From Escherichia coli (GTDB taxonomy: Bacteria; Pseudomonadota; Gammaproteobacteria; Enterobacterales; Enterobacteriaceae): 64,000 bases of DNA. Below, piece by piece: positions 14,611-45,934 of the stretch. The stretch lies in assembly GCF_030013595.1 (NCBI RefSeq), contig NZ_CP122768.1; one strand, given 5' to 3'. The position numbers were made by a program, and so were the translations under genes. A model generated the notes under the pieces. That model had not been told where the DNA came from. It made no database searches and saw only the letters and a program-made list of their open reading frames with translations. Each line of letters opens with the position of its first letter. Position 1 is the first letter of the stretch.

Positions 14611-14611
14611 T

Positions 14612-18199: not shown

Positions 18200-18206
18200 G
18201 TTATAC

Positions 18207-18229
18207 AACCACATGGACATCCCATGTGG
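18207..18229 (+). terminator. Hairpin immediately after the last cluster gene (weak terminator candidate)
   Basis: accacatgg / ccatgtggt inverted repeat with 5-nt loop; no strong T-run, so low confidence. Confidence 0.3.
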
Positions 18230-19038: not shown

Positions 19039-20070
19039 TCATGTACTCTGACGTAATTCTATCTGGTAGTTGAATTGCACGATACGCGACTCTTCTGATT
19101 CATCATGATTATTATTCAATAGTCCAATCAGTAACTTACCTGTCTCTATCCCCATTTTTTTGTAGTCAATACGGATGGATGTCAAAGTTGGGTGTGTTTG
19201 ATCGCAATTGTCTGAACCGTCAAGACAAGCTACAGCGATATTTCCAGGGATTTTTAACAAACGCCGCTGGCACTCAAACATTATACCCAGCGCAATCTCT
19301 TCGTGGCTGCAAATCACAGCATCCAGCTCTGGTTGTCGCAGTAATATCTCGTTTAATGCGTAACGCCCCAATTGCAGACTTGCGGCATCCGGCATGGTGA
19401 TAACAAGATCAGTGTTCTGGTAATGGCTCAGCATTGCTTTATGCCAGCCGTTCAGTTGCTGACGTTGCAGGCGGTTGTCCATATGCGCACCGATAAATCC
19501 GATATTCTTATAACCCTGCTCCAGCAGATGTTCGGTCAGTTTATGTGATGCTTCAAAAAATGCTGTTTCGATGGTAATTTGAGCCGGACTGAAAGGGGAA
19601 CCGATAACGTTAATGGTAGGTATATTTGTTTTCTCGAGTATCTGGTGAGTTTTATCAGCCAACTGAGAACCAAAAATAACTAACGCCGCCGGGTTGCCTT
19701 GAAGAAGCGTCATCAGAATTTCAGCTTCTTTGAGCTGATTATACTCATGACACCCAAGCAGTAGCTGGAATTCATTTTTATTAAGCACCTGCTGTAATGA
19801 CTGCATAAAGCGGGAGCTGGCTTTATCTGTCAGGGAAGGAACCAGTACGGCGACTGTATGACTGTGACCAGATGCAAGGGCGCCAGCAGTTCTGTTGGGA
19901 ATATAACCCAACTCTTCTACGGCCTGTTCTATCTTTTCCCTCAGCTTGTCAGAAACCTGTTCCGGTGTTCTCAGCGCGCGGGAAACGGTCATAGTTCCGA
20001 CACCTGCAAAGTTAGCGACCTCCTGCAGCGTCACCCGTCCGGTACCACGGCGCTTACGTGTTTTTTCCAT
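19039..20070 (-). CDS. LacI/GalR-family transcriptional regulator
   Basis: 343-aa ORF with N-terminal HTH (VTLQEVANFAGVGTMTVSRAL) and periplasmic-binding-protein-like sugar-binding domain. Confidence 0.9.
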   Translation of the reverse strand: MEKTRKRRGTGRVTLQEVANFAGVGTMTVSRALRTPEQVSDKLREKIEQAVEELGYIPNRTAGALASGHSHTVAVLVPSLTDKASSRFMQSLQQVLNKNEFQLLLGCHEYNQLKEAEILMTLLQGNPAALVIFGSQLADKTHQILEKTNIPTINVIGSPFSPAQITIETAFFEASHKLTEHLLEQGYKNIGFIGAHMDNRLQRQQLNGWHKAMLSHYQNTDLVITMPDAASLQLGRYALNEILLRQPELDAVICSHEEIALGIMFECQRRLLKIPGNIAVACLDGSDNCDQTHPTLTSIRIDYKKMGIETGKLLIGLLNNNHDESEESRIVQFNYQIELRQST

Positions 20071-20215
20071 TTCGACTCCATGGATAATTACAACCAGCTG
20101 TTTTCATTACTTTTATTTCACCATTACTCTTTCCAGTTTTTGCCCACGGTAGCAAATATCCTGTTGCATTGTATATGCAGGAACCGAATATAGCCAAAGC
20201 ATGGCGGCAGAGAAA

Positions 20216-20263
20216 TGATAGCGCTATCACAAAGATTGGTAGCGTTATCAGATAGCGCTATCA
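20216..20263. promoter_or_regulatory. Two copies of a 14-bp palindrome (TGATAGCGCTATCA and AGATAGCGCTATCA), candidate LacI-family operators
   Basis: Perfect and near-perfect palindromes at 20216-20229 and 20250-20263, in the divergent intergenic region between the regulator and the PTS operon. Confidence 0.55.
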
Positions 20264-20340
20264 AATGCGACAATCATCACATTAATTAATGCGTAAAATA
20301 TCTACTCTCCTGTTAATTATCATCGGGAGTTATCAGTAGC

Positions 20341-20784
20341 ATGTTAAAAAATCTATTAAATACAGAGGTCGTTCAGGTCGTGGAACAGGTCAAAGACTGG
20401 CGGGAAGCCGTGGCGATTTCATGCCGACCGTTGATTGAAAACGGCTCTATCGAACCGCGTTATGTTGATGCGATCTATCACTCGCACGACACTATCGGTC
20501 CGTACTATGTGGTTGGCCCTGGTATTGCGATGCCTCATGCGCGCCCGGAAGAGGGGGCTAACAAGCTGTCATTAGCACTGACCCTGATCCCTTCAGGTGT
20601 GAATTTTGATGCCGATGAAAACGATCCAGTGAAATTACTGATTGTGCTGGCTGCAACCGACAGTACCAGCCACATTGAAGCGATTTCTCAACTCGCCAAG
20701 TTATTCGATAACGAAAAAGACATACAGGCCATTTTGACGGCCAAAACGACGCAGGACATTTTGTCTGTTATTGCGCGCTATTAA
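20341..20784 (+). CDS. PTS EIIA component (mannitol/fructose/ascorbate-type EIIA)
   Basis: 147-aa ORF with active-site His context (GIAMPHAR). Confidence 0.85.
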   Translation: MLKNLLNTEVVQVVEQVKDWREAVAISCRPLIENGSIEPRYVDAIYHSHDTIGPYYVVGPGIAMPHARPEEGANKLSLALTLIPSGVNFDADENDPVKLLIVLAATDSTSHIEAISQLAKLFDNEKDIQAILTAKTTQDILSVIARY

Positions 20785-20799
20785 TCCAGAGGAACATTT

Positions 20800-21087
20800 A
20801 TGAAAATTACAGTGGTTTGCGGTAACGGCTTAGGCACCAGCCTGATGATGGAAATGAGCATTAAAAGCATTTTGAAGGATTTGTCCGTCAGCGCTGATGT
20901 TGATCACGTCGACCTGGGCTCCGCGAAAGGGACGCCGAGTGATATCTATGTCGGCACCAAAGACATTGCCGAGCAGTTAGCCGCGCAGTCTGTCGCAGGC
21001 AAAATCGTCGCACTGGAAAATATGATTGATAAGAAAGCCATGAGAGAACGTTTGTCCGTGGTATTAACCGAATTAGGCGCACTGTAA
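20800..21087 (+). CDS. PTS EIIB component (ascorbate/galactitol-type)
   Basis: 95-aa ORF with N-terminal phospho-Cys motif VVCGNGLGTS. Confidence 0.85.
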   Translation: MKITVVCGNGLGTSLMMEMSIKSILKDLSVSADVDHVDLGSAKGTPSDIYVGTKDIAEQLAAQSVAGKIVALENMIDKKAMRERLSVVLTELGAL

Positions 21088-21099
21088 GCTGGGGGCGAT

Positions 21100-22356
21100 A
21101 TGGATTTCTTTCGTTTTTTGATGAGCGATGTACTTTCCGAACCCGCAGTGCTGGTCGGTTTAATCGCCCTGATTGGCCTGATTGCACAGAAAAAACCGGT
21201 AACCGAATGCATTAAAGGTACCGTCAAGACCATTATGGGGTTTGTGATTTTAGGCGCAGGGGCGGGTTTAGTTGTGTCGTCACTGGGTGACTTCGCAAAC
21301 ATTTTCCAGCATGCCTTTGGTATTCAGGGTGTAGTGCCGAACAATGAAGCCATTGTTTCCGTAGCGCAGAAAAGCTTCGGGAAAGAAATGGCGATGATTA
21401 TGTTCTTTGCGATGGTTATCAACATTATGATTGCCCGTTTCACACCGTGGAAATTTATCTTCCTGACCGGTCATCACACGTTGTTTATGTCGATGATGGT
21501 AGCGGTAATTCTGGCAACAGCAGGCATGACCGGCATTACGCTTATAGCCGTTGGCTCTTTGGTTGTTGGCGTGGCAATGGTCTTTTTCCCGGCTATTGCG
21601 CATCCGTACATGAAGAAAGTGACCGGTTCTGATGACGTTGCCATCGGCCACTTCTCAACATTATCTTATGTATTGGCCGGTTTCATCGGCAGCAAGTTTG
21701 GTAATAAAGAGCACTCGACTGAAGACATGAATGTGCCGAAAAGTCTGCTGTTCTTGCGCGACACGCCGGTTGCTATCTCTTTTACCATGAGCATAATTTT
21801 CCTGGTGACGTGCCTGTTTGCGGGTGCAGATGCGGTGAAAGAGCTTAGCGGTGGTAAAAACTGGTTCATGTTCTCTATCATGCAATCCATTACCTTCGCA
21901 GCTGGCGTGTACATCATTCTGCAGGGTGTGCGCATGGTGATTGCGGAGATTGTCCCGGCATTCAAAGGTATTTCAGACAAGCTGGTTCCGAATGCCAGAC
22001 CTGCTCTCGATTGCCCGGTCGTCTTCCCTTACGCACCTAACGCTGTACTGGTTGGTTTCCTGAGTAGCTTTGCTGCAGGTTTAATCGGTATGTTCACGTT
22101 GTATCTGCTGAACATGATCGTGATTATTCCTGGTGTGGTGCCGCACTTCTTCGTAGGTGCAGCTGCAGGGGTATTCGGTAATGCAACGGGTGGACGTCGT
22201 GGTGCGATTTTGGGTGCCTTCGCTCAGGGCTTGCTTATTACCTTCCTGCCAGTATTCTTATTGCCGGTGCTGGGTGATATTGGTTTTGCTAACACCACCT
22301 TCAGTGATGCTGACTTTGGCGCACTGGGTATTTTGTTAGGGATTATCGTTCGCTAA
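21100..22356 (+). CDS. PTS EIIC permease (UlaA/SgaT family)
   Basis: 418-aa polytopic membrane ORF following IIA and IIB. Confidence 0.85.
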   Translation: MDFFRFLMSDVLSEPAVLVGLIALIGLIAQKKPVTECIKGTVKTIMGFVILGAGAGLVVSSLGDFANIFQHAFGIQGVVPNNEAIVSVAQKSFGKEMAMIMFFAMVINIMIARFTPWKFIFLTGHHTLFMSMMVAVILATAGMTGITLIAVGSLVVGVAMVFFPAIAHPYMKKVTGSDDVAIGHFSTLSYVLAGFIGSKFGNKEHSTEDMNVPKSLLFLRDTPVAISFTMSIIFLVTCLFAGADAVKELSGGKNWFMFSIMQSITFAAGVYIILQGVRMVIAEIVPAFKGISDKLVPNARPALDCPVVFPYAPNAVLVGFLSSFAAGLIGMFTLYLLNMIVIIPGVVPHFFVGAAAGVFGNATGGRRGAILGAFAQGLLITFLPVFLLPVLGDIGFANTTFSDADFGALGILLGIIVR

Positions 22357-22369
22357 TATTTTGATGACA

Positions 22370-22425
22370 TTAATATCCTCCAGGATTTCAGGAACGTGGA
22401 GGATATTAATTCCTCTTATTTTCTC
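22370..22425 (+). terminator. Rho-independent terminator after the PTS EIIC gene
   Basis: Perfect 13-bp inverted repeat ttaatatcctcca / tggaggatattaa (22370-22382, 22397-22409) followed by T-rich tract. Confidence 0.6.
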
Positions 22426-22571
22426 CATTTTTCTTTCTTCCAGTCAGGACTGCATCCGATTAATCGTAAGCGCTCCGAGAAGTACGTAGCGTAAGGATTA
22501 TTTTACAGCTGAGAAGTTTCAGTGCAGCAGTTCATGCACACGGTTCGACGGCTAGTCATTGATCTTCATAA

Positions 22572-22856
22572 TTACCTCGCGTAAAAAACGGGGTAAGGCC
22601 GCTCATCCAGCGTCATCTCCACAGGTAATAATTCAACGCCAATGCCAGAAGAGTTCGTTACCGGAAGACGCCGTGATATACGCCCTTTGATCAGCGAGAG
22701 CCTGAGCCATTTGAACAGAAGATTATCATTGATATCATGCTCCCGGGCAATACGGGCAACAGAACCCCTTGGTTGTAAAGCCAGTTTAACCATTTGAAGT
22801 TTAAACTCATTTGAAAATGACCTGCGGGGTTCAACTGATAATGTTTTTTGTTCCAT
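22572..22856 (-). mobile_element. IS3-family transposase OrfA-like remnant (degraded)
   Basis: 94-aa ORF with the helix-turn-helix region typical of IS3-family OrfA (FSNEFKLQMVKLA...SVARIAREHDINDNLLFKWLR); no intact second transposase ORF or terminal repeats seen. Confidence 0.5.
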
Positions 22857-23277
22857 AACAGGTGTCCACTAGTTGAAAAGGTGGGTACCTATGTTACCAA
22901 TACTGGCTTAATGGCTACATACAGCAGTCGGTTTACGCATACACTTTTATAGTGCACTCCGGCCTCATGAATATAACGGTGGATTACCGCCGAACGAATC
23001 GGAAAATAGATACTGGAAAAAAACTGAAATTGTGACCAGTTTTTGTTGACCACTACAAATAAATAAAAGAGTTGCAGTGCTTGCTCGGTAAGAAAACAAT
23101 GGAGGTTAAGCTCCTCAAAGAAGCTGTGGAGTACACCACTCTACAGTAGTTGCGCAAATTTGGAGTGGACGATAATGTGATCGTCTATAAGGGCAACGCT
23201 ATCATAGTCTTGTCCTGGCGGGTAAAAAAACGCGCTTACCTTAACGATAAGCGCGCCGCTGTTCAGGCCTTGAGTGG

Positions 23278-24291
23278 TTATTCAATTCCTGTGGTGACTG
23301 TAAAAGTGCGCGTTTGCTGCGGTGCAACCTGAATCAGCGTGCCATTACGTTGCGCGGCAAGATACCCCTCAGGCCGACAGGTTGCAGGTAATGCAAAGGC
23401 GGCTACCTGTTGCTCTCCGTTATAAAGGATCCAGCGTGTCACATAATTTAGTTCAGCACTGTAGAAACGAGTAACAAACGTAGTGCCATCGGGAGAGATC
23501 ATGCGAAACTCTGGCTGATCTGTATAAGCGTCCAGTTTGTCTGCAAAGAAGACAATTTCTGGATCATAAAATTCCGGTTGACTCAGCGTCGACAGAGAGG
23601 CTTCTCCCTGCATAATCCGTTGATTAAACGCCAGCCACTGAGCGGTGGGATTAACATGCGAAGGCACTGATTCACGCAATCTTAATATTTCGTCCGGGAT
23701 ATTCTGGCTGAATGTAGCATTTGGTATATATGCATAATTCATGTGGCACATATATTGTAGTGGCATATCTACAGAAGCCAGATTGGTTACGGCCATCTTA
23801 ATATCGAACAGTGTAGAGGATTTGTGAAGGACCACTGTTGGCTGAGCCAGATAATGATGACCGAAACCCATTACATACTCGTAACGCCCGTTAAGGCGTA
23901 ACATATCTCCGTCTAATTCCAGCCATGCTTCATCCATCGCGGCACAGGCCATTTCACCGTGTAGCAGATGAGTATCTTCCACAGATGGGCAGCCATTAGC
24001 CAGCAAACCTGAATGAAAAGCAAAACAGCCATAGGTCTCTATCACCTCTGTCGCCGGTTTAGGCTGGCGAAACATATTGCACATGGTGAGGCCGTGTCCA
24101 TCAAATTGCGCATCCCAAATCATCTGCCCCATCCAGGGAAGAATAATCAAATGTCCACGACTGTTTGCAATTTTAAGCCCCTCGACACCGCTGTCATATC
24201 GAAAAGACGTGACAGTAAAATCACTATTTTCCAGCAAGATACGAGGTTTCTCGCCAAAAAGCGCCCGCCACAAATTAATACGCGTACTCAT
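23278..24291 (-). CDS. deoX: DeoX-like protein of the deoxyribose operon (function unknown, possibly mutarotase-like)
   Basis: 337-aa ORF downstream of the kinase and permease in the same orientation; assignment by operon synteny with Salmonella/pathogenic E. coli deoK-deoP-deoX as recalled. Confidence 0.55.
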   Translation of the reverse strand: MSTRINLWRALFGEKPRILLENSDFTVTSFRYDSGVEGLKIANSRGHLIILPWMGQMIWDAQFDGHGLTMCNMFRQPKPATEVIETYGCFAFHSGLLANGCPSVEDTHLLHGEMACAAMDEAWLELDGDMLRLNGRYEYVMGFGHHYLAQPTVVLHKSSTLFDIKMAVTNLASVDMPLQYMCHMNYAYIPNATFSQNIPDEILRLRESVPSHVNPTAQWLAFNQRIMQGEASLSTLSQPEFYDPEIVFFADKLDAYTDQPEFRMISPDGTTFVTRFYSAELNYVTRWILYNGEQQVAAFALPATCRPEGYLAAQRNGTLIQVAPQQTRTFTVTTGIE

Positions 24292-24302
24292 AACGATTCT
24301 CC

Positions 24303-25619
24303 TCAGGACGCTGTGACTTCAGCCAGTGCGGTACGTACTTTGCTTTCACGCCAGAAGTAGACTCCGACATAGACAAAGCAGAGCATAGAAACCAGGAATG
24401 AAAGCTGTAGTGAGTGGAACATATCTGCAATATATCCCTGAATTGCCGGAACCACCGCGGCACCGACAATAGCCATAACAATGACTGCTCCTGCCATTTC
24501 TGTATGTTCGTTATCAACTGTATCCAGTGTTCCTGCATAGATCGTCGCCCAGCAAGGGCCAAACAAAACACTTACCAGGACGGCGACATAGACCGCGCTG
24601 AAACTTGGAGCCAGTGCAACATATGCCAGGAACAGCGCCCCTATAACGGAATAGAGAATCAATACTTTTTCCGGATTAAAACGCGTCATAAGGATATTGG
24701 CTATAAACTTGCCAATAAAGAAGCAGGCAAAGCTATAGACCATGAAGTTTGAAGCATCACGTTCGTTGATATCGCCCAACTCCAGCGCCAGACGGATGGT
24801 AAATGACCATACTGCGACCTGCATACCCACATAAAGGAACTGCGCCACAATACCGCGACGAAAGCGCGGATTTCTAGCCAGATAGCGCAGCGTATCCATT
24901 GCTGACGGGCGTTTATGGTGACTTGTCTGTGCCACTTTACAGGTTGGGAAGCGGGTTAAAAGGAACAACACCATGACCACAACCAGAATCATAATCATAT
25001 ACTTATACGGTTCAAGGGTGTTCTCTAACATCAGCACCTTAAAGTTGTGAATTTGCTCGGCGTTCATTCCTGACATCTGCTTTTCAAGGCTTTCCCCCTC
25101 GGAGAAAACCAGATATTTGCCCAATAAAATACCAGACGCAGCACCAATCGGATAAAAGGTCTGGCTGATATTGAGCCGCAATGTGGCATAGGCTTTTGGA
25201 CCGATCATTGAACTGTATGTGTTCGCTGCAGTTTCAAGGAAACTCAGGCCAATCGCAATCGCAAAAATAGCTGCAAGGAACATAGTGTAGGTTGCCATAT
25301 GCGAGGCAGGGAAAAAAAGTGTACAACCACCAATATACAGCGTCAGGCCAATTAAAATTGCCACCTTATAACTGGTCTTTTTAATCACAAGGGATGCTGG
25401 TATTGCAATTAAAAAATAACCTCCATAAAATGCGCTCTGCACCAATGCTGAAGCAAAGTTACTTAGCGAAAATACACTTTTGAATTGAGTGATTAATATG
25501 TCATTTAATGCAGCTGCGCATCCCCATAGCGGGAATAAACACGATAACAAAATAAACTGGAACAAGGGAGTCTTATTCAGATACCCATCAGGCATCTGAA
25601 TGATGTTTTTATCGTTCAT
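24303..25619 (-). CDS. deoP: MFS sugar permease, FucP family (DeoP-like deoxyribose permease)
   Basis: 438-aa 12-helix MFS ORF; FucP-like N-terminus. Confidence 0.7.
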   Translation of the reverse strand: MNDKNIIQMPDGYLNKTPLFQFILLSCLFPLWGCAAALNDILITQFKSVFSLSNFASALVQSAFYGGYFLIAIPASLVIKKTSYKVAILIGLTLYIGGCTLFFPASHMATYTMFLAAIFAIAIGLSFLETAANTYSSMIGPKAYATLRLNISQTFYPIGAASGILLGKYLVFSEGESLEKQMSGMNAEQIHNFKVLMLENTLEPYKYMIMILVVVMVLFLLTRFPTCKVAQTSHHKRPSAMDTLRYLARNPRFRRGIVAQFLYVGMQVAVWSFTIRLALELGDINERDASNFMVYSFACFFIGKFIANILMTRFNPEKVLILYSVIGALFLAYVALAPSFSAVYVAVLVSVLFGPCWATIYAGTLDTVDNEHTEMAGAVIVMAIVGAAVVPAIQGYIADMFHSLQLSFLVSMLCFVYVGVYFWRESKVRTALAEVTAS

Positions 25620-25646
25620 AGTGCTACCTTTAACTGTGCAGGATGA

Positions 25647-26557
25647 TTATTCGTTTAAGGTTAAAAATTCATTAAATTGTTCAATACTCGGATAAGATGA
25701 TTGCGTACCTTTCCCTGTGACGCTGAAAGCGGCAAAGAGAGCGGCTTTTTTCAAAGCGGCTTCAACATCACCGCTTTGAACATAATAATGGGAAAAGCAA
25801 CCAATAAATGCGTCACCAGCGCCACTAGTATCAACAGCATTTACTTTGAATGCAGGAACATGGACTTCCTGATCGCGGGTCATCCATAATGCGCCTTTTT
25901 CGCTCATGGTAACAATAATATTGTTCAGCCCTTTATCAACTAACGAACGTGCGGCCAAACGAATATGATCATAAGTATCAACCGACATACCGGTTAATAT
26001 TTCCAGTTCTGTTTCATTCGGGATAAAGAAATCACATTTGCAGGCATAAGACATATCTAACTCACGCAATGCCGGAGCCGGATTTAATAACACTTCAATA
26101 CCATTTTTCTTACCAAACTCAATCGCGTGGTAAACTGTTTCCAGTTGAACTTCCAGTTGTAAAACGATCAATTTGCATTTTTTCAGATCTTCTGCAGCTC
26201 GATCGATATCTTCCGGGGAAAGAAATTTATTCGCTCCCTTAATTATTAATATACTATTGCTCGAGTTGGCATTAACAAAGATCGGTGCAACACCACTGCT
26301 GGTACAGGGGACTTTCTCAACATAAGTGGTATTAATTCCCCATGATTCGAGATTACGAATAGTATTATCCGCAAAAATATCATCACCTACTTTAGTCAGC
26401 ATCAGGACTTTTGAATTCAATTTAGCCGCCGCCACCGCTTGATTAGCACCTTTCCCACCACATCCGATTTTGAAGGCAGGTGCTTCCAGAGTTTCTCCTT
26501 CTTTAGGCATCTGATTAGTGTAAGTAATGAGATCCACCATATTGGAACCAATAACTG
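25647..26557 (-). pseudogene. deoK: Ribokinase-family sugar kinase (DeoK-like deoxyribokinase), 5' end removed by IS1
   Basis: PfkB/ribokinase motifs (GGKGANQAVAAA, DTSGAGDAF); reading frame runs upstream (VIGSNMVDL...) straight into the IS1 end at 26558 with no start codon or promoter. Confidence 0.7.
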
Positions 26558-26572
26558 GGTAATGACTCCAAC

Positions 26573-27076
26573 TTACTGATAGTGTTTTATGTTCAGATAA
26601 TGCCCGATGACCTTGTCATGCAGCTCCACCGATTTTGAGAACGACAGTGACTTCCGTCCCAGCCTTGCCAGATGTTGTCTCAGATTCAGGTTATGCCGCT
26701 CAATGCGCTGAGTATAACGCTTGCTGATAACGTGCAGCTTTCCCTTCAGGCGTGATTCATACAGCGGCCAGCCATCCGTCATCCATACCACGACCTCAAA
26801 GGCCGACAGCAGGCTCAGAAGACGCTCCAGTGTGGCCAGAGTGCGTTCACCGAAGACGTGCGCCACAACCGTCCTCCGCATCCTGTCATACGCGTAAAAC
26901 AGCCAGCGCTGACGTGATTTAGCACCGACGTAGCCCCACTGTTCGTCCATTTCAGCGCAGACAATCACATCACTGCCCGGTTGTATGCGCGAGGTTACCG
27001 ACTGCGGCCTGAGTTTTTTAAGTGGCGGAAAATCGTGTTGAGGCCAACGCCAATAATGCGTGCACTGGCGCGACAT
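26573..27076 (-). CDS. insB: IS1 transposase InsB reading frame
   Basis: 167-aa ORF matching IS1 InsB with a few substitutions relative to the K-12 copy as recalled. Confidence 0.9.
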
Positions 27077-27270
27077 CCGACGCCATTCATGGCCATATCA
27101 ATGATTTTCTGGTGCGTACCGGGCTGAGAGGCGGCGTAAGTGAACTGTAGTTGCCATGTTTTACGGCAGTGAGAGCAGAGATAGCGCTGATGTCCGGCGG
27201 TGCTTTTGCCGTTACGCACCACCCCGTCAGTAGCTGAACAGGAGGGACAGCTGATAGAAACAGAAGCCAC
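26995..27270 (-). CDS. insA: IS1 InsA
   Basis: 91-aa [19 protein letters not shown]...; start codon here is GTG. Confidence 0.9.
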
Positions 27271-27325
27271 TGGAGCACCTCAAAAACACCATCATACACT
27301 AAATCAGTAAGTTGGCAGCATCACC

Positions 27326-28027
27326 GACAATGCAGATGGTTCAACCATGCTGGATAAACGTTATGTCATCACTAACGGTAATCAGCTGGCGATTCAAAAT
27401 GATTTACTGGAGAGTTTATCAAAAGCGTTAAACCAACCGTGGCCACAACGAATGCAGGAGATGCTCCAGCAAATTTTGCCTCATCGTGGTGCGTTATTAA
27501 CTAATTTTTATCAGGCACATGATTATTTACTGCATGGCGATGATAAATCATTGAACCGTGCCAGTGAATTATTAGGTGAGATTGTTCAATCATCCCCAGA
27601 ATTTACCTACGCGAGAGCAGAAAAAGCATTAGTTGATATCGTGCGCCATTCTCAACATCCTTTAGATGAAAAACAATTAGCAGCACTGAACACAGACATA
27701 GATAACATTGTTACACTACCGGAATTGAATAACCTGTCCATTATATATCAAATAAAAGCGGTCAGTGCTCTGGTAAAAGGTAAAACAGATGAGTCTTACC
27801 AGGCGATAAATACTGGCATTGATCTTGAAATGTCCTGGCTAAATTATGTGTTGCTTGGCAAGGTTTATGAAATGAAGGGGATGAACCGGGAAGCAGCTGA
27901 TGCATATCTCACCGCCTTTAATTTACGCCCAGGGGCAAACACCCTTTACTGGATTGAAAATGGTATATTCCAGACTTCTGTTCCTTATGTTGTACCTTAT
28001 CTCGACAAATTTCTCGCTTCAGAATAA
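27326..28027 (+). pseudogene. cadC: cadC 3' fragment (C-terminal about 233 codons of the ToxR-like activator); 5' half replaced by IS1
   Basis: ORF ends about 365 bp upstream of cadB in the position and orientation of cadC; begins abruptly at the IS1 end. Confidence 0.8.
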
Positions 28028-28392
28028 GTAACTCCCGGGTTGATTTATGCTCGGCAAGATTTGTTGTTGAGTTTTTGTATGTTTCTGTTGGTATAATATG
28101 TTGCGGCAATTTATTTGCCGCATAATTTTTATTACATAAATTTAACCAGAAAATGTCCCACAATCCATTGTAAATATTGAATGTTTATCTTTTCATGATA
28201 TCAACTTGCGATCCTGATGTGTTAATAAAAAACCTCAAGTTCTCACTTACAGAAACTTTTGTGTTATTTCACCTAATCTTTAGGATTAATCCTTTTTTCG
28301 TGAGTATTCTTAGCGCCAGTTTGGTCTGGTCAGGAAATAGTTATACATCATGACCCGGACTCCAAATTCAAAAATGAAATTAGGAGAAGAGC
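28028..28392 (+). promoter_or_regulatory. cadBA promoter/regulatory region (Pcad)
   Basis: Conserved intergenic region between cadC and cadB; individual CadC sites not mapped. Confidence 0.5.
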
Positions 28393-29727
28393 ATGAGTTC
28401 TGCCAAGAAGATCGGGCTATTTGCCTGTACCGGTGTTGTTGCCGGTAATATGATGGGGAGCGGTATTGCATTATTACCTGCGAACCTAGCAAGTATCGGT
28501 GGTATTGCTATCTGGGGTTGGATTATCTCTATTATTGGTGCAATGTCGCTGGCGTATGTATATGCCCGACTGGCAACAAAAAACCCGCAACAAGGTGGCC
28601 CAATTGCTTATGCCGGAGAAATTTCCCCTGCATTTGGTTTTCAGACAGGTGTTCTTTATTACCATGCTAACTGGATTGGTAACCTGGCGATTGGTATTAC
28701 CGCTGTATCTTATCTTTCCACCTTCTTCCCAGTATTAAATGATCCTGTTCCGGCGGGTATCGCCTGTATTGCTATCGTCTGGGTATTTACCTTTGTAAAT
28801 ATGCTCGGCGGTACCTGGGTAAGCCGTTTAACCACTATTGGTCTGGTGCTGGTTCTTATTCCTGTGGTAATGACAGCTATTGTTGGCTGGCATTGGTTTG
28901 ATGCTGCGACTTATGCTGCTAACTGGAATACTGCGGATACCACCGATGGTCATGCGATCATTAAAAGTATTCTGCTCTGCCTGTGGGCCTTCGTGGGTGT
29001 TGAATCCGCAGCTGTAAGTACTGGTATGGTTAAAAACCCGAAACGTACCGTTCCGCTGGCAACCATGCTGGGTACTGGTTTAGCAGGTATTGTTTATATC
29101 GCTGCGACTCAGGTGCTTTCCGGTATGTATCCGTCTTCTGTAATGGCAGCTTCCGGTGCTCCGTTTGCAATCAGTGCTTCAACTATCCTCGGTAACTGGG
29201 CTGCGCCGCTGGTTTCTGCATTCACCGCCTTTGCGTGCCTGACCTCTCTGGGCTCCTGGATGATGTTGGTAGGCCAGGCAGGTGTACGTGCCGCTAACGA
29301 CGGTAACTTCCCGAAAGTTTATGGTGAAGTCGACAGCAACGGTATTCCGAAAAAAGGTCTGCTGCTGGCTGCAGTGAAAATGACTGCCCTGATGATCCTC
29401 ATCACTCTGATGAACTCTGCCGGTGGTAAAGCATCTGACCTGTTCGGTGAACTGACCGGTATCGCAGTACTGCTGACTATGCTGCCGTACTTCTACTCTT
29501 GCGTTGACCTGATTCGTTTTGAAGGCGTTAACATCCGCAACTTTGTCAGCCTGATCTGCTCTGTACTGGGTTGCGTGTTCTGCTTCATCGCGCTGATGGG
29601 CGCAAGCTCCTTCGAGCTGGCAGGTACCTTCATCGTCAGCCTGATTATCCTGATGTTCTACGCTCGCAAAATGCACGAGCGCCAGAGCCACTCAATGGAT
29701 AACCACACAGCGTCTAACGCACATTAA
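28393..29727 (+). CDS. cadB: Lysine:cadaverine antiporter
   Basis: 444-aa APC-family transporter upstream of cadA. Confidence 0.95.
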   Translation: MSSAKKIGLFACTGVVAGNMMGSGIALLPANLASIGGIAIWGWIISIIGAMSLAYVYARLATKNPQQGGPIAYAGEISPAFGFQTGVLYYHANWIGNLAIGITAVSYLSTFFPVLNDPVPAGIACIAIVWVFTFVNMLGGTWVSRLTTIGLVLVLIPVVMTAIVGWHWFDAATYAANWNTADTTDGHAIIKSILLCLWAFVGVESAAVSTGMVKNPKRTVPLATMLGTGLAGIVYIAATQVLSGMYPSSVMAASGAPFAISASTILGNWAAPLVSAFTAFACLTSLGSWMMLVGQAGVRAANDGNFPKVYGEVDSNGIPKKGLLLAAVKMTALMILITLMNSAGGKASDLFGELTGIAVLLTMLPYFYSCVDLIRFEGVNIRNFVSLICSVLGCVFCFIALMGASSFELAGTFIVSLIILMFYARKMHERQSHSMDNHTASNAH

Positions 29728-29806
29728 TTAAAAGTATTTTCCGAGGCTCCTCCTTTCATTTTGTCCCATGTGTTGGGAGGGGCCTTTTTTACCTGGAGAT
29801 ATGACT

Positions 29807-31954
29807 ATGAACGTTATTGCAATATTGAATCACATGGGGGTTTATTTTAAAGAAGAACCCATCCGTGAACTTCATCGCGCGCTTGAACGTCTGAACTTCC
29901 AGATTGTTTACCCGAACGACCGTGACGACTTATTAAAACTGATCGAAAACAATGCGCGTCTGTGCGGCGTTATTTTTGACTGGGATAAATATAATCTCGA
30001 GCTGTGCGAAGAAATTAGCAAAATGAACGAGAACCTGCCGTTGTACGCGTTCGCTAATACGTATTCCACTCTCGATGTAAGCCTGAATGACCTGCGTTTA
30101 CAGATTAGCTTCTTTGAATATGCGCTGGGTGCTGCTGAAGATATTGCTAACAAGATCAAGCAGACCACTGACGAATATATCAACACTATTCTGCCTCCGC
30201 TGACCAAAGCACTGTTTAAATATGTTCGTGAAGGTAAATATACTTTCTGTACTCCTGGTCACATGGGCGGTACTGCATTCCAGAAAAGCCCGGTAGGTAG
30301 CCTGTTCTATGATTTCTTTGGTCCGAACACCATGAAATCTGATATTTCCATTTCAGTATCTGAACTGGGTTCTCTGCTGGATCACAGTGGTCCACACAAA
30401 GAAGCAGAACAGTATATCGCTCGCGTCTTTAACGCAGACCGCAGCTACATGGTGACCAACGGTACTTCCACTGCGAACAAAATTGTTGGTATGTACTCTG
30501 CTCCAGCAGGCAGCACCATTCTGATTGACCGTAACTGCCACAAATCGCTGACCCACCTGATGATGATGAGCGATGTTACGCCAATCTATTTCCGCCCGAC
30601 CCGTAACGCTTACGGTATTCTTGGTGGTATCCCACAGAGTGAATTCCAGCACGCTACCATTGCTAAGCGCGTGAAAGAAACACCAAACGCAACCTGGCCG
30701 GTACATGCTGTAATTACTAACTCTACCTATGATGGTCTGCTGTACAACACCGACTTCATCAAGAAAACACTGGATGTGAAATCCATCCACTTTGACTCCG
30801 CGTGGGTGCCTTACACCAACTTCTCACCGATTTACGAAGGTAAATGCGGTATGAGCGGTGGCCGTGTAGAAGGGAAAGTGATTTACGAAACCCAGTCTAC
30901 TCACAAACTGCTGGCGGCGTTCTCTCAGGCTTCCATGATCCACGTTAAAGGTGACGTAAACGAAGAAACCTTTAACGAAGCCTACATGATGCACACCACC
31001 ACTTCTCCGCACTACGGTATCGTGGCGTCCACTGAAACCGCTGCGGCGATGATGAAAGGCAATGCAGGTAAGCGTCTGATCAACGGTTCCATTGAACGTG
31101 CGATCAAATTCCGTAAAGAGATCAAACGTCTGAGAACGGAATCTGATGGCTGGTTCTTTGATGTATGGCAGCCGGATCATATCGATACGACTGAATGCTG
31201 GCCGCTGCGTTCTGACAGCACCTGGCACGGCTTCAAAAACATCGATAACGAGCACATGTATCTTGACCCGATCAAAGTCACCCTGCTGACTCCGGGGATG
31301 GAAAAAGACGGCACCATGAGCGACTTTGGTATTCCGGCCAGCATCGTGGCGAAATACCTCGACGAACATGGCATCGTTGTTGAGAAAACCGGTCCGTATA
31401 ACCTGCTGTTCCTGTTCAGCATCGGTATCGATAAGACCAAAGCACTGAGCCTGCTGCGTGCTCTGACAGACTTCAAACGTGCGTTCGATCTGAACCTGCG
31501 TGTGAAAAACATGCTGCCGTCTCTGTATCGTGAAGATCCTGAATTCTATGAAAACATGCGTATTCAGGAACTGGCTCAGAATATCCACAAACTGATTGTT
31601 CACCACAATCTGCCGGATCTGATGTATCGCGCATTTGAAGTTCTGCCGACCATGGTAATGACTCCGTATGCTGCGTTCCAGAAAGAGCTGCACGGTATGA
31701 CCGAAGAAGTTTACCTCGACGAAATGGTAGGTCGTATTAACGCCAATATGATCCTTCCGTATCCGCCGGGAGTTCCTCTGGTAATGCCGGGTGAAATGAT
31801 CACCGAAGAAAGCCGTCCGGTTCTGGAGTTCCTGCAGATGCTGTGTGAAATCGGCGCTCACTATCCGGGCTTTGAAACCGATATTCACGGTGCATACCGT
31901 CAGGCTGATGGCCGCTATACCGTTAAGGTATTGAAAGAAGAAAGCAAAAAATAA
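29807..31954 (+). CDS. cadA: Inducible lysine decarboxylase
   Basis: 715 aa from MNVIAILNHMGVYF...; full-length agreement with E. coli CadA as recalled. ORF track start at 29768 is an upstream in-frame extension. Confidence 0.95.
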   Translation: MNVIAILNHMGVYFKEEPIRELHRALERLNFQIVYPNDRDDLLKLIENNARLCGVIFDWDKYNLELCEEISKMNENLPLYAFANTYSTLDVSLNDLRLQISFFEYALGAAEDIANKIKQTTDEYINTILPPLTKALFKYVREGKYTFCTPGHMGGTAFQKSPVGSLFYDFFGPNTMKSDISISVSELGSLLDHSGPHKEAEQYIARVFNADRSYMVTNGTSTANKIVGMYSAPAGSTILIDRNCHKSLTHLMMMSDVTPIYFRPTRNAYGILGGIPQSEFQHATIAKRVKETPNATWPVHAVITNSTYDGLLYNTDFIKKTLDVKSIHFDSAWVPYTNFSPIYEGKCGMSGGRVEGKVIYETQSTHKLLAAFSQASMIHVKGDVNEETFNEAYMMHTTTSPHYGIVASTETAAAMMKGNAGKRLINGSIERAIKFRKEIKRLRTESDGWFFDVWQPDHIDTTECWPLRSDSTWHGFKNIDNEHMYLDPIKVTLLTPGMEKDGTMSDFGIPASIVAKYLDEHGIVVEKTGPYNLLFLFSIGIDKTKALSLLRALTDFKRAFDLNLRVKNMLPSLYREDPEFYENMRIQELAQNIHKLIVHHNLPDLMYRAFEVLPTMVMTPYAAFQKELHGMTEEVYLDEMVGRINANMILPYPPGVPLVMPGEMITEESRPVLEFLQMLCEIGAHYPGFETDIHGAYRQADGRYTVKVLKEESKK

Positions 31955-31967
31955 TTAGCTCGTACAA

Positions 31968-31996
31968 GGGAAGTGGCTTGCCACTTCCCTTTTTTG
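31968..31996 (+). terminator. Rho-independent terminator after cadA
   Basis: gggaagtgg-cttg-ccacttccc hairpin followed by TTTTTTG. Confidence 0.8.
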
Positions 31997-32012
31997 CTCA
32001 TAAGGAGAACAC

Positions 32013-33470
32013 ATGAAAACACCCTCACAGCCGCGCGCGATATACTATATCGTGGCGATCCAAATCTGGGAGTACTTCAGTTTTTACGGCATGCGTGCCT
32101 TACTCATTCTCTATCTCACCCATCAGCTTGGTTTTGATGATAACCATGCCATCAGCCTGTTCAGCGCATATGCTTCTCTGGTTTACGTTACCCCTATTCT
32201 CGGCGGCTGGCTTGCCGACCGCCTGCTCGGCAACCGCACTGCAGTGATTGCCGGCGCGCTGTTAATGACCCTTGGCCATGTGGTGCTGGGCATTGATACA
32301 AATTCAACCTTTAGCCTGTATCTGGCGCTGGCAATCATTATTTGTGGCTACGGTTTATTCAAATCAAACATCAGCTGTTTGCTTGGCGAGCTCTACGACG
32401 AGAACGATCATCGACGTGATGGCGGTTTTTCGCTGCTGTATGCTGCAGGCAATATCGGTTCTATCGCCGCCCCCATCGCCTGCGGCCTGGCTGCTCAGTG
32501 GTATGGATGGCATGTTGGCTTTGCCCTTGCGGGTGGCGGCATGTTTATCGGTTTGTTGATTTTCTTAAGCGGTCATCGTCATTTCCAGTCCACGCGTAGT
32601 ATGGATAAGAAAGCGCTCACTAGCGTCAAATTTGCCTTACCAGTATGGAGCTGGTTAGTGGTGATGCTCTGTTTAGCCCCAGTATTTTTTACCCTGCTGC
32701 TGGAGAACGACTGGTCCGGATATTTGCTGGCGATCGTTTGCCTCATTGCAGCACAAATCATTGCCCGCATGATGATCAAATTCCCCGAACACCGCCGTGC
32801 TCTTTGGCAAATTGTATTGTTGATGTTTGTCGGGACGTTGTTCTGGGTACTGGCACAACAGGGCGGCAGTACCATCAGCTTGTTTATCGATCGCTTTGTG
32901 AATCGTCAGGCATTCAATATTGAAGTACCTACAGCACTATTCCAGTCGGTGAATGCCATTGCGGTGATGCTCGCTGGGGTTGTTCTGGCCTGGCTGGCGT
33001 CGCCAGAAAGCCGCGGCAATTCAGCATTGCGCGTCTGGCTGAAGTTTGCCTTTGGCTTACTGCTGATGGCTTGTGGCTTTATGTTGCTGGCATTTGATGC
33101 CCGACATGCAGCGGCTGGCGGTCAAGCGTCAATGGGCGTGATGGTATCCGGGCTGGCGCTAATGGGCTTTGCTGAACTCTTTATTGACCCGGTGGCGATT
33201 GCGCAAATCACGCGTCTGAAAATGTCTGGCGTATTAACCGGTATTTATATGCTGGCAACAGGCGCGGTCGCCAACTGGCTGGCAGGCGTCGTGGCACAGC
33301 AGACGACAGAGTCGCAAATTAGCGGTATGGCAATTGCCGCTTACCAGCGATTCTTTTCTCAGATGGGAGAGTGGACGTTGGCTTGTGTCGCGATCATCGT
33401 GGTATTGGCCTTTGCTACCCGTTTTCTGTTTAGCACGCCGACGAATATGATACAGGAGAGCAACGATTAA
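32013..33470 (+). CDS. dtpC: Dipeptide/tripeptide:H+ permease (POT family)
   Basis: 485-aa POT-family ORF in the conserved position between cadA and lysU. Confidence 0.9.
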
Positions 33471-33706
33471 CTGTCGTAAAAACAATTGGTTATGAATAAA
33501 TTAACTTTCAGTTTATCACACTAGCAAATCGAGATTAATAAGTCATTTAAACCATTTTTATGGTTATTTATTAGTGATATCAACTTGAGGTAAGCGTTAG
33601 TTTCGATAAGATAAACTGAGTTATTAATAGTCGAGGCAGATAATACAGTGTACCGATCTGTCTCTTTATCTACGCTAAATTGAAAGCTGGATTTAGAGGA
33701 ACCAAA

Positions 33707-35224
33707 ATGTCTGAACGAGAAACACGGGGAGCCAATGAGGCTATTGATTTTAACGATGAACTGAGAAATCGCCGCGAAAAACTGGCGGCACTACGTCAGC
33801 AAGGTGTGGCGTTTCCCAATGATTTTCGCCGCGACCATACCTCTGACCAGTTGCACGAAGAGTTTGATGCGAAGGATAACCAGGAACTGGAATCCTTAAA
33901 CATTGAAGTCTCGGTTGCTGGCCGAATGATGACCCGTCGTATCATGGGGAAAGCCTCCTTTGTAACGTTGCAGGATGTCGGTGGCCGTATTCAACTGTAC
34001 GTTGCAAGAGATAGCCTGCCAGAAGGTGTTTATAACGATCAGTTTAAAAAATGGGATCTGGGTGACATTATCGGTGCCCGCGGTACGCTGTTTAAGACGC
34101 AAACGGGTGAGCTTTCCATTCACTGTACTGAGCTGCGCCTGCTGACTAAAGCACTACGTCCTTTACCAGATAAATTCCATGGTCTGCAGGATCAGGAAGT
34201 CCGTTATCGTCAACGTTATCTGGACCTCATCGCTAACGATAAATCCCGTCAAACGTTTGTTGTCCGTTCAAAAATTCTGGCCGCTATCCGTCAGTTCATG
34301 GTCGCGCGCGGCTTTATGGAAGTAGAAACCCCGATGATGCAGGTAATTCCAGGTGGGGCATCTGCTCGCCCGTTTATTACCCATCATAACGCTCTGGATT
34401 TAGATATGTACCTGCGTATCGCGCCAGAGCTGTATCTGAAACGTCTGGTTGTAGGCGGTTTTGAACGGGTATTCGAAATCAACCGTAACTTCCGTAATGA
34501 AGGTATTTCTGTTCGCCATAATCCTGAGTTCACAATGATGGAACTCTACATGGCGTATGCGGATTACCACGATTTGATTGAACTGACAGAGTCACTGTTC
34601 CGCACCCTGGCACAAGAGGTTCTGGGTACCACTAAAGTCACTTATGGCGAGCATGTGTTTGATTTCGGCAAACCGTTTGAAAAACTCACCATGCGCGAAG
34701 CAATCAAAAAATATCGTCCAGAAACCGATATGGCCGACCTGGATAATTTTGATGCCGCTAAAGCATTAGCTGAATCTATTGGTATTACGGTAGAGAAAAG
34801 CTGGGGGCTGGGACGTATTGTCACGGAGATCTTTGATGAAGTGGCAGAAGCACATCTGATTCAGCCAACCTTTATTACGGAATATCCCGCAGAAGTGTCA
34901 CCGCTGGCGCGCCGTAATGATGTTAACCCGGAAATCACCGACCGATTTGAATTCTTCATCGGTGGTCGTGAAATCGGTAATGGTTTTAGCGAATTAAACG
35001 ACGCAGAAGATCAGGCTGAACGTTTCCAGGAACAGGTTAACGCTAAAGCTGCAGGTGACGACGAAGCCATGTTCTATGACGAAGATTACGTGACTGCGCT
35101 GGAATATGGTTTGCCACCAACCGCTGGTCTGGGTATTGGTATCGACCGAATGATTATGCTGTTTACAAACAGTCATACTATTCGCGACGTTATTCTCTTC
35201 CCGGCGATGCGCCCACAGAAATAA
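33707..35224 (+). CDS. lysU: Lysyl-tRNA synthetase, inducible isoform
   Basis: 505 aa from MSERETRG...; class II aaRS motifs; identification as lysU (not lysS) by genomic context. Confidence 0.92.
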
Positions 35225-35235
35225 TTTTCACTTTA

Positions 35236-35269
35236 ATGAACGAAGCAGTCAGGCGACTGCTTCGTTCAT
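35236..35269 (+). terminator. Hairpin after lysU
   Basis: atgaacgaagcagtc-aggc-gactgcttcgttcat inverted repeat. Confidence 0.55.
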
Positions 35270-35343
35270 CATTCCGCAAATCCAGTTTTGAGGAGAGACG
35301 CTTCGTTTCACGATAACCAGCGGGTCCACTCAACTACAGCTCC

Positions 35344-35516: not shown

Positions 35517-35543
35517 TTTTTATGTTCTTCTTATCCTTCCTGG

Positions 35544-36339: not shown

Positions 36340-36350
36340 TTTACCCTCGC

Positions 36351-43549: not shown

Positions 43550-44083
43550 AAAATTTGCAAATCCAAAGCATTACATTAAGACATGGCCTGATAAACATAT
43601 CGCATCAGGCCATTTTCGTTAGCTATTGTCCACGTCAGGCTTTCACATCACTCACTGCACCGACCGGAATATCAGCATGAACAGGCTCGGGCGGTACTTT
43701 GCGATATTTATCCAGCAGATGGATCTGGATCCTGCGCAGCGTGCACCATTGAGGCGATAGAAACGGAAGTAGAGAATCAGCGTTACCATGAAAAACAGAG
43801 TCGGTAGAGCAATCATAATAAACTGCATACCTAATAGGGCTTGCGTAGACTGTTCAACATTCGGTACATAGCCAATCATCCCTAACACAACCGCAATGAA
43901 AAAAGCCGCAAAGGCTGAACCGCCCTTCACCACCATAGTCTGCACGGAGTAAGCGATGCTTTCACAGCGTACGTGCAGTTTATATTCACCGTAATCAACG
44001 GTATCTGCCACCATGATGACCTGTAATACCCAGAAAAGCGCCGTTCCCACATTCAGCAAGATACCCGCAATCACAATGAGGAC

Positions 44084-44092
44084 GACGTTGTG
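44084..44092. repeat. Target-site duplication (gacgttgtg), left copy
   Basis: Identical 9 bp directly flank both ends of IS1 copy 2. Confidence 0.9.
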
Positions 44093-44107
44093 GGTAATGA
44101 CTCCAAC

Positions 44108-44611
44108 TTACTGATAGTGTTTTATGTTCAGATAATGCCCGATGACCTTGTCATGCAGCTCCACCGATTTTGAGAACGACAGTGACTTCCGTCCCAGCCT
44201 TGCCAGATGTTGTCTCAGATTCAGGTTATGCCGCTCAATGCGCTGAGTATAACGCTTGCTGATAACGTGCAGCTTTCCCTTCAGGCGTGATTCATACAGC
44301 GGCCAGCCATCCGTCATCCATACCACGACCTCAAAGGCCGACAGCAGGCTCAGAAGACGCTCCAGTGTGGCCAGAGTGCGTTCACCGAAGACGTGCGCCA
44401 CAACCGTCCTCCGCATCCTGTCATACGCGTAAAACAGCCAGCGCTGACGTGATTTAGCACCGACGTAGCCCCACTGTTCGTCCATTTCAGCGCAGACAAT
44501 CACATCACTGCCCGGTTGTATGCGCGAGGTTACCGACTGCGGCCTGAGTTTTTTAAGTGGCGGAAAATCGTGTTGAGGCCAACGCCAATAATGCGTGCAC
44601 TGGCGCGACAT
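44108..44611 (-). CDS. insB: IS1 transposase InsB reading frame
   Basis: Identical translation to copy 1. Confidence 0.9.
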
Positions 44612-44805
44612 CCGACGCCATTCATGGCCATATCAATGATTTTCTGGTGCGTACCGGGCTGAGAGGCGGCGTAAGTGAACTGTAGTTGCCATGTTTTACG
44701 GCAGTGAGAGCAGAGATAGCGCTGATGTCCGGCGGTGCTTTTGCCGTTACGCACCACCCCGTCAGTAGCTGAACAGGAGGGACAGCTGATAGAAACAGAA
44801 GCCAC
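44530..44805 (-). CDS. insA: IS1 InsA
   Basis: Identical translation to copy 1. Confidence 0.9.
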
Positions 44806-44860
44806 TGGAGCACCTCAAAAACACCATCATACACTAAATCAGTAAGTTGGCAGCATCACC

Positions 44861-44869
44861 GACGTTGTG
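44861..44869. repeat. Target-site duplication (gacgttgtg), right copy
   Basis: See left copy. Confidence 0.9.
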
Positions 44870-45934
44870 ATAGCTCATTAATGCCATTAACAGGAGAACA
44901 CCACAGCTTAACACCGGAAGAATAGATGCTCCGGCCCATAAAATGCGTCGGGATAATGATTTAACTAAGCGTGGGAAGAATACTAACGTCACCAGATTAG
45001 CAGCTCCCGCATACGACAGATAATAGGGGAACAAATCCGCATCACCGATAACATATGAGAAATAATAGATAGCAAAGCCGGTAATAATATTGCTGGCTAC
45101 ATTATAAGCAAGAGCCATACCCAAGAGGCATGAAAGCTGATCGTTTTTATAAATTAGCGCAACGATGGCTTTAAGTGTCAGATGGCTTCCTTCAGCAGAC
45201 GGTTGATTGTCTGACGAAAAGACTTCATGCACATTGCGCAGAGTGATGATGGTTGAAACAATAAAAAAGGCGATCAGTACCAGAGTGAACATCTGAAAGC
45301 CAAATCCCCGATCGCCACCGCCGACATAATTAACAAATGGTAGCGTCACACCTGCCGTAACAAAGCCTGCCAGACTGGCAAAAAAACGCGGATAAGGAAC
45401 CAGTTGTTCGCGCTCACGTTTATCGAGCGTTATGGTTGGAACCAGCGACCAGAAGGGAATATCCATAATGGTGTAAGTCATGCCCCAGAGGATGTAGGTC
45501 ACGCAAACAAAGACAATCTGAGTAGTACCTTCAAACAGATGCGCACTAAAGAGGAGAAATAAGATTACAGAGTTTGCCAACGTACCGATCAGGATCCAGG
45601 GTTTGAACTTACCCCATCGCGATCGCGTAGCATTTACAATCCATCCCATAATCGGATCGTTAATAGCATCCCAGATCCTCGCCACCAGAAACAAAGTACC
45701 GACCAAACCCACAGACAGCCCGACGACATCGGTGTAGTAATACATGAGGTACATATACACAATGCCGATCGCAAAATCCTTCCCGAACGCTCCAAATCCA
45801 TAACTGAGTTTTGTAGTCATTGAAATGCTCATAGGGTATCGGGTCGTTGTTACCAACGCCCGCCTTCTGTTATTGGTATCGTCAGAGGTGTGCGCCGGAA
45901 TAAATCCCCCGGCGCAGTAGCGTTTAGTCGCGTT

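What the first reader, a model, noticed from the sequence alone, without database searches (positions are those of the whole stretch)
26995..27270. IS1 isoform with GTG-initiated insA and substitutions relative to the K-12 copy
Both copies encode InsA starting at GTG (plus-strand gccac rather than gccat) and their InsA/InsB translations differ from the K-12 IS1 sequences I recall at several residues. Both copies share this isoform, consistent with recent expansion of one IS1 lineage in this genome.
Basis: partly seen in the sequence, partly recalled or inferred. Interest (0 to 1): 0.2.

Follow-up and report, generated by a model that had tools for sequence, protein, structure and literature searches.

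The report
Ordinary IS1 copy; GTG start is normal
The interval is the insA gene of a complete, already catalogued variant of the common jumping gene IS1; its GTG start codon is the normal state in E. coli K-12 too, so only the sequence differences are real, and the more notable facts are that this copy replaced 21 kb and cut off the front of cadC.

Summary
Window 26995-27270 (-) is insA of a complete 768-bp IS1 (26558-27325, -). A second copy (44093-44860, -) is 100% identical. insA does start with GTG. But all six IS1 copies of K-12 MG1655 (IS1A-F) also start insA with GTG, and the first 177 nt of the window element match IS1A exactly. The claimed contrast with K-12 is therefore wrong.

The substitutions are real: 51-52 nt differences from IS1A-E and 31 from IS1F. 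InsA differs from IS1A by T46A, T69S, M73I and L81F; InsAB' differs at 13 residues. The differences form a mosaic: nt 1-157 are IS1A-like (18/18 informative sites) and nt 178-768 are mostly IS1F-like (permutation p<=1e-5).

The A6C frameshift site, both inverted repeats and the 232-aa InsAB' frame are intact. The exact 768-nt sequence occurs in many public E. coli chromosomes and plasmids, among the listed exact matches mostly pig isolates, so it is not new.

Copy 2 is a simple insertion in melB with a 9-bp target duplication. Copy 1 has no duplication. It joins a 5'-truncated deoK-like ribokinase gene to cadC at nt 838, replacing 21,161 bp present in strain P13-6. This is most likely an IS1-mediated deletion that removes the N-terminal part of the cadBA activator. 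Interest is low.

The parts
26558..27325 (-). IS1 copy 1: complete 768-bp element with no target-site duplication
   Evidence: Both inverted repeats found. Length and flanks: CAATAACTG on the left, GACAATGCA on the right.
27303..27325 (-). Left inverted repeat (IRL), GGTGATGCTGCCAACTTACTGAT
   Evidence: 0 mismatches to the pattern; 0 matches expected by chance.
26558..26580 (+). Right inverted repeat (IRR), GGTAATGACTCCAACTTACTGAT, 20/23 matching IRL
27291..27318 (-). Promoter-like site (CTGCCA-16-TATGAT) overlapping IRL, where the known IS1 insA promoter lies
   Evidence: This is a consensus match only. The link to the IS1 promoter rests on established knowledge of IS1.
26995..27270 (-). insA (the finding): 91 aa, GTG start at 27268-27270, zinc ribbon plus helix-turn-helix
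27013..27019 (-). A6C (AAAAAAC) programmed -1 frameshift motif, element nt 307-313
   Evidence: for the motif position in the element; one search shows the plus strand reading GTTTTTT here.
26573..27076 (-). insB frame. With insA it gives an open 232-aa InsAB' transposase after a -1 shift.
   Evidence: NF033558, 242.8 bits against a cut-off of 100. DDE_Tnp_IS1, 248.5 bits.
25647..26557 (-). deoK-like ribokinase gene (rbsK), missing its first 10 nt and its promoter, abutting IRR
27326..28027 (+). 3' part of cadC (from nt 838; model positions 285-515 of 516), abutting IRL. The first 837 nt are absent.
   Evidence: NF007540 matches only positions 285-515..
44093..44860 (-). IS1 copy 2: 768 bp, identical to copy 1, inserted in melB
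44084..44092 (.). 9-bp target-site duplication GACGTTGTG, left copy
44861..44869 (.). 9-bp target-site duplication GACGTTGTG, right copy
44861..45832 (-). melB 5' fragment (residues 1-324)
43634..44092 (-). melB 3' fragment. It also carries a 1-nt deletion near 43744 that shifts the frame.

Best explanation
The interval is insA of a complete, apparently functional IS1 element. The element is a known isoform with a mosaic sequence: an IS1A-type left end (nt 1-157, at most to nt 177) and a mostly IS1F-type remainder.

How it works, from established knowledge of IS1: a weak promoter partly inside IRL drives insA. insA starts with GTG in all IS1 copies examined here. InsA (zinc ribbon plus helix-turn-helix) binds the inverted repeats and represses transcription and transposition. 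A rare -1 ribosomal frameshift at AAAAAAC fuses insA to the insB frame and yields the InsAB' DDE transposase.

What the sequence shows: copy 2 transposed into melB by a simple insertion, leaving a 9-bp duplication. Copy 1 sits at a junction with no duplication, between a 5'-truncated deoK-like gene and cadC nt 838, where 21,161 bp found in a reference strain are missing.

What is inferred: an IS1 copy first inserted at one of the two breakpoints, then deleted the adjacent DNA by intramolecular transposition. This removed the deoK promoter and deoQ, the rest of the genomic island, and the N-terminal part of cadC. It probably silenced the cadBA lysine decarboxylase operon.
For: Anatomy of the element: searches show 768 bp, IRL and IRR, a GTG start, A6C at nt 307 and an open 232-aa fusion frame.

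Family models: one search gives 242.8 bits for the IS1 transposase model, and one search matches all three IS1 Pfam domains.

GTG in K-12: the annotated insA coordinates and the extracted codons show GTG in all six copies.

Divergence and mosaic. All 18 informative sites in nt 1-157 are IS1A-like, against 46 IS1F-like and 8 IS1A-like sites in nt 178-768. Max chi-square is 42.5, with permutation p<=1e-5. An IS1X2-family copy in strain ET5 has the same pattern with a different crossover.

Selection: 36 of the 51 differences from IS1A fall in synonymous codons of InsAB'.

Already public: 100% matches in at least 30 listed E. coli records, 150 E. coli records at >=99% and 52 plasmids at >=99%. The exact InsA, InsB and InsAB' proteins are all in the protein collection.

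Activity: copy 2 has a 9-bp duplication. The same isoform lies in cadC of EC556 at a different site with the duplication CCGGTAGTG.

Deletion: the window is colinear with P13-6 except that record positions 4459717-4480877 are replaced by IS1. IS1-associated deletions ending at an IS1 end are documented (PMC10569738). IS1 inactivation of cadC is documented in enteroinvasive E. coli (PMC4156367).
Against: Only two copies could be examined, because the complete source genome is not available.

The missing 21 kb could lie elsewhere in the genome, through inversion or translocation rather than deletion. It is only shown to be absent from these 64 kb.

InsA carries L81F. One paper suggests this change may limit activity in K-12 IS1B/C/D (PMC12428005). 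The fresh insertions argue against that here, but activity was not measured.

Loss of lysine decarboxylase expression is inferred, not tested. cadB and cadA ORFs of about full length remain.
Confidence: 0.9

Rival explanations
1. The junction at copy 1 arose by homologous recombination between two directly oriented IS1 copies, one inserted in deoK and one in cadC. This would delete the 21 kb between them, instead of a one-ended intramolecular transposition by a single copy.
For: The product would look identical: one IS1 and no target duplication. cadC is repeatedly hit by simple IS1 insertions: EC556/571/581, EH2252 near the same site and EIEC 6.81. Genomes listed as carrying this exact sequence have between 5 and 21 IS1 places per chromosome, not all necessarily this isoform.
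Against: No complete E. coli genome was found with an IS1 at cadC nt 838 carrying its own duplication. The deoK nt 10 junction was not searched on its own, but no complete genome covered 80% or more of a 10-kb query spanning both junctions. So no precursor is documented. The sequence itself cannot separate the two routes.
Confidence: 0.35
2. The two copies are identical because of gene conversion between IS1 copies, or because of independent arrival from plasmids carrying the same isoform, and not because of recent transposition within this genome.
For: The same 768-nt sequence is 100% identical on many plasmids and chromosomes of different strains. EC291 carries a different isoform (26 differences) at the very same melB junction. 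That fits either a hot spot or conversion of a shared insertion.
Against: Copy 2 has a clean 9-bp duplication and the element encodes an intact transposase. Transposition from a resident copy is the simplest source. Arrival from a plasmid would still count as spread of one IS1 lineage.
Confidence: 0.12
3. One reading: the GTG start is a derived substitution (ATG to GTG) that marks this isoform and may lower InsA translation relative to K-12.
Against: All six K-12 MG1655 insA genes start with GTG at the annotated coordinate. Element nt 1-177 are identical to IS1A.
Confidence: 0.01

Closest known systems
IS1A / IS1E of E. coli K-12 (the 'consensus' IS1, same type as IS1R)
   Same: 768 bp, the same IRL, nt 1-177 identical, GTG start of insA, A6C at nt 307, and the same insA/insB' layout.
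   Different: 51 substitutions, all between nt 178 and 750. InsA differs by T46A, T69S, M73I and L81F. InsAB' differs at 13 residues.
IS1F of E. coli K-12
   Same: Closest K-12 copy overall, with 31 differences. The body from nt 178 to 768 is mostly IS1F-like, following IS1F at 46 of 54 informative sites. GTG start.
   Different: The left 157 nt are not IS1F-like: 18 differences, all matching IS1A. IS1F has a stop codon in the transposase frame (annotated as a pseudogene), whereas the window element has Trp there and an open frame.
IS1X2-family elements (as labelled by NCBI annotation; copy in E. coli ET5 upstream of cadC)
   Same: Also a mosaic of IS1A-like left part and IS1F-like right part. 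23 differences from the window element, about 97% identity.
   Different: Its crossover lies further right, at about nt 301-345 against 157-178. The ET5 copy lacks one A of the A6C run. NCBI annotation does not give the window isoform the IS1X2 name. The ISfinder reference itself could not be consulted.
IS-mediated cadC/cadA inactivation in Shigella and enteroinvasive E. coli
   Same: cadC is disrupted by IS1 while cadB and cadA remain, as reported for EIEC 6.81 and other strains (PMC4156367; PMC3739510).
   Different: Here the event is a 21-kb replacement reaching into a neighbouring island. The closest relatives by sequence are pig-associated E. coli, not invasive strains. No phenotype was measured.

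Membership tests
IS1 family insertion sequence | Length of about 768 bp bounded by imperfect inverted repeats of about 23 bp | tested here: met
   768 bp; IRL and IRR match at 20/23; 0 pattern matches expected by chance.
IS1 family insertion sequence | insA and insB' frames overlapping in -1 phase, with an A6C slippery motif that gives InsAB' | tested here: met
   AAAAAAC at nt 307; the fused frame is open for 232 aa.
IS1 family insertion sequence | Protein matches the curated IS1 transposase models above their cut-offs | tested here: met
   NF033558, 242.8 bits (cut-off 100). PF03811, PF12759 and PF03400 all above gathering score.
IS1 family insertion sequence | Target-site duplication, usually 9 bp | tested here: met
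   Copy 2 has GACGTTGTG on both sides. Copy 1 has none, which is explained by the 21-kb replacement.
Standard K-12 IS1 (IS1A/E, B/C, D): exact identity | Same 768-nt sequence as a K-12 copy | tested here: not met
   51, 51 and 52 differences, and 31 from IS1F.
   GTG in IS1A, B, C, D, E and F.
IS1X2 (ISfinder name) | At least about 95% nucleotide identity to the ISfinder IS1X2 reference | tested here: inconclusive
   97% identity to an NCBI-labelled IS1X2-family copy. The ISfinder reference is not available here, and NCBI labels the exact isoform only 'IS1 family transposase'.

The most novel reading that the evidence does not exclude
This IS1A-left/IS1F-body recombinant may be an unusually active IS1 lineage in pig-associated E. 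coli. Among its targets it repeatedly destroys cadC: here by a 21-kb deletion, and in EC556/571/581 by simple insertion at another site. That would amount to convergent, possibly adaptive loss of lysine decarboxylase outside Shigella and enteroinvasive E. coli. It would also show that the InsA L81F change does not abolish transposition.
Probability: 0.25. Interest if true: 0.3.

Novelty: already known. Interest (0 to 1): 0.07.

Why it matters
It matters little as a discovery. The element is a catalogued IS1 variant, and the supposedly unusual start codon is the norm.

The useful outcomes are practical:
- A correction: insA of IS1 starts with GTG in K-12 as well.
- A clear example that IS1 isoforms are recombinant mosaics.
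- Annotation of two IS1-caused gene losses in this window: melB, and cadC together with 21 kb of an island that includes the deoxyribose-use regulator. These predict a melibiose-negative phenotype and probably a lysine-decarboxylase-negative one.

Tried and rejected
- I looked for a published statement of the insA start codon in two recent IS1 papers. None was found, so the claim rests on RefSeq coordinates plus sequence.
- I tried to find the source genome among complete E. coli genomes with a 10-kb query and a 120-nt junction query. No true match to the IS1-cadC junction appeared. The two records that covered the 120-nt junction query by 80% or more were a two-piece artefact (CD09) and a different nearby insertion (EH2252).
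- The same junction does exist in draft assemblies (GCA_008326365.1 and Logan runs), but those records carry no organism details here.
- EC291 at first looked like the same melB insertion. Its IS1 differs at 26 positions and the 3' melB fragment is gone, so it is not the same genome.
- An ungapped comparison with the ET5 IS1X2-like copy gave a meaningless 379 differences because of a 1-nt deletion. I redid it with MAFFT and got 23.
- The Rfam scan found nothing in or near the IS1 copies.
- I did not scan GTDB genome contigs or metagenomes. Shigella and E. coli probably collapse to one representative there, so the cost was not justified.

Full report
**What is at the coordinates**

Window 26995-27270 on the minus strand is a 91-aa ORF that starts with GTG; the plus strand reads gccac at 27266-27270. 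It lies inside a 768-bp element at 26558-27325 (-). The element is bounded by the IS1 inverted repeats GGTGATGCTGCCAACTTACTGAT and GGTAATGACTCCAACTTACTGAT, where no match is expected by chance. A second copy at 44093-44860 (-) is identical at all 768 positions.

The ORF matches the IS1 transposase and IS1/IS1595 zinc-binding models. The slippery motif AAAAAAC lies at element nt 307. A -1 shift there gives an open 232-aa InsAB'. That product scores 242.8 bits on NCBIfam NF033558 (cut-off 100) and matches Pfam Zn_ribbon_InsA, HTH_Tnp_IS1 and DDE_Tnp_IS1. A promoter-like site overlaps IRL, where the IS1 promoter is known to lie. Both copies are therefore complete and apparently functional IS1 elements.

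**The GTG claim**

I fetched all six IS1 copies of E. coli K-12 MG1655 (NC_000913.3) with their RefSeq annotation and extracted the insA start of each. IS1A, B, C, D, E and F all start with GTG. Element nt 1-177, covering IRL, the ribosome-binding region, the start codon and the first 40 codons, are identical between the window element and IS1A. GTG is therefore the normal IS1 state and not a mark of this isoform. The part of the finding that contrasts it with K-12 is wrong.

**The substitution claim**

This part is correct. The element differs from the K-12 copies as follows:

| K-12 copy | nt differences | identity |
|---|---|---|
| IS1A/E | 51 | 93.4% |
| IS1B/C | 51 | – |
| IS1D | 52 | – |
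| IS1F | 31 | 96.0% |

My counts among the K-12 copies themselves (9 for IS1B/C/D and 73 for IS1F against IS1A) agree with a published comparison (PMC12428005).

InsA differs from IS1A by T46A, T69S, M73I and L81F. InsAB' differs at 13 residues. The stand-alone InsB ORF differs at 17. Of the 51 differences, 36 fall in synonymous codons of InsAB', as expected for a gene under purifying selection.

**Mosaic structure**

The differences are not spread evenly. At the 72 usable sites where IS1A and IS1F differ, the window element follows IS1A at all 18 sites in nt 1-157. In nt 178-768 it follows IS1F at 46 of 54 sites. Max chi-square is 42.5 and the permutation p is <=1e-5. An element that NCBI labels 'IS1X2 family' in strain ET5 shows the same two-parent pattern with a crossover further right, and differs from the window element at 23 positions. 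So this is one of several recombinant IS1 isoforms.

**Is it new?**

No. The exact 768-nt sequence is found at 100% identity in at least 30 listed E. coli records. In total 150 E. coli records and 52 plasmids, including one Shigella flexneri plasmid, match at >=99%. Most of the listed exact matches come from pig isolates. The exact InsA, InsB and InsAB' proteins are already in public collections.

**Context of copy 2**

Copy 2 is flanked by a 9-bp direct duplication, GACGTTGTG. It splits melB into a 5' fragment (residues 1-324) and a 3' fragment. This is a simple transposition.

**Context of copy 1**

Copy 1 has no duplication.

- On the IRR side it abuts a deoK-like ribokinase gene that lacks its first 10 nt.
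- On the IRL side it abuts cadC from nt 838 on; only model positions 285-515 of 516 remain.
- Aligned with the pig strain P13-6 (NZ_CP080223.1), the window is colinear except that record positions 4459717-4480877, 21,161 bp, are replaced by the IS1.
- The missing DNA holds the deoK start and promoter, the DeoR-family regulator gene, Ag43 and toxin-antitoxin genes of the island, and the first 837 nt of cadC.
- None of it is found elsewhere in the window.

The most likely history is an IS1 insertion at one breakpoint followed by an IS1-mediated adjacent deletion. This behaviour is documented for IS1 (PMC10569738). Recombination between two direct IS1 copies would give the same product and cannot be excluded.

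cadB and cadA ORFs of about full length remain, but what is left of their activator gene lacks its first 837 nt. Loss of lysine decarboxylase expression is therefore predicted but was not tested. IS1 disruption of cadC is already described in enteroinvasive E. coli (PMC4156367). The same isoform sits in cadC of EC556 at another site with its own duplication.

**On 'recent expansion'**

Several points fit recent activity: two identical copies, one with a clean duplication, an intact transposase frame, and fresh insertions of the same isoform in related strains. But two copies are a small sample, and the same sequence is identical across many strains and plasmids. A census of the whole source genome is needed.

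The same IS1-cadC junction is present in draft assemblies (GCA_008326365.1 and Logan runs). No complete RefSeq E. coli genome has it.

**Verdict**

This is an ordinary, already known IS1 isoform. The contrast with K-12 in the start codon is mistaken. Interest is low. The IS1-linked loss of cadC, melB and 21 kb of island is the most useful annotation to carry forward.

Noticed in passing
window 10500-26557 versus 27326-44092: The island to the left of IS1 copy 1 is 99.994% identical to E. coli O141:H4 P13-6 (1 mismatch in 16,058 nt). The core genes to the right (cadC to melB) are only 98.67% identical (221 mismatches). Island and core therefore seem to have different histories.
   Followed up: partly
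window ~43744 (melB 3' fragment): A 1-nt deletion relative to P13-6 shifts the frame of the melB 3' fragment. This is either a second lesion in the already disrupted gene or a sequencing error.
   Followed up: partly
window 44861-44880 (melB): This looks like a local IS1 hot spot. EC291 has a different IS1 isoform (26 differences) at exactly the same melB junction. EC-107 has an IS1A-type copy with duplication TAATGAGCT only 11 nt away; 42 genomes in all covered at least 80% of the junction query, though only EC291 and EC-107 were inspected.
   Followed up: partly
window 27326 (cadC breakpoint): E. coli EH2252 has an IS1 in cadC about 12 nt from the window breakpoint. EC556/571/581 have the same isoform further downstream in cadC. 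cadC seems to be a recurrent IS1 target.
   Followed up: partly
InsA residue 81 (window ~27028-27030): InsA carries Phe81, as in K-12 IS1B/C/D. A recent paper proposes that L81F may limit activity (PMC12428005). Yet this isoform shows fresh insertions with target duplications.
   Followed up: no
window ~22570-22860: By homology to the P13-6 annotation, a short 'transposase' remnant lies between the PTS IIC gene and the aldose-epimerase-like gene of the deoxyribose cluster.
   Followed up: no
window 57000-57165 (-) and 62832-62909 (+): Rfam matches above gathering score: sRNA STnc630 (181 bits) and naRNA4 (85.5 bits). These were the only two matches above gathering score in the window. The tRNA-Phe gene that lies upstream of cadC in EC291 was not detected anywhere in the window.
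   Followed up: no
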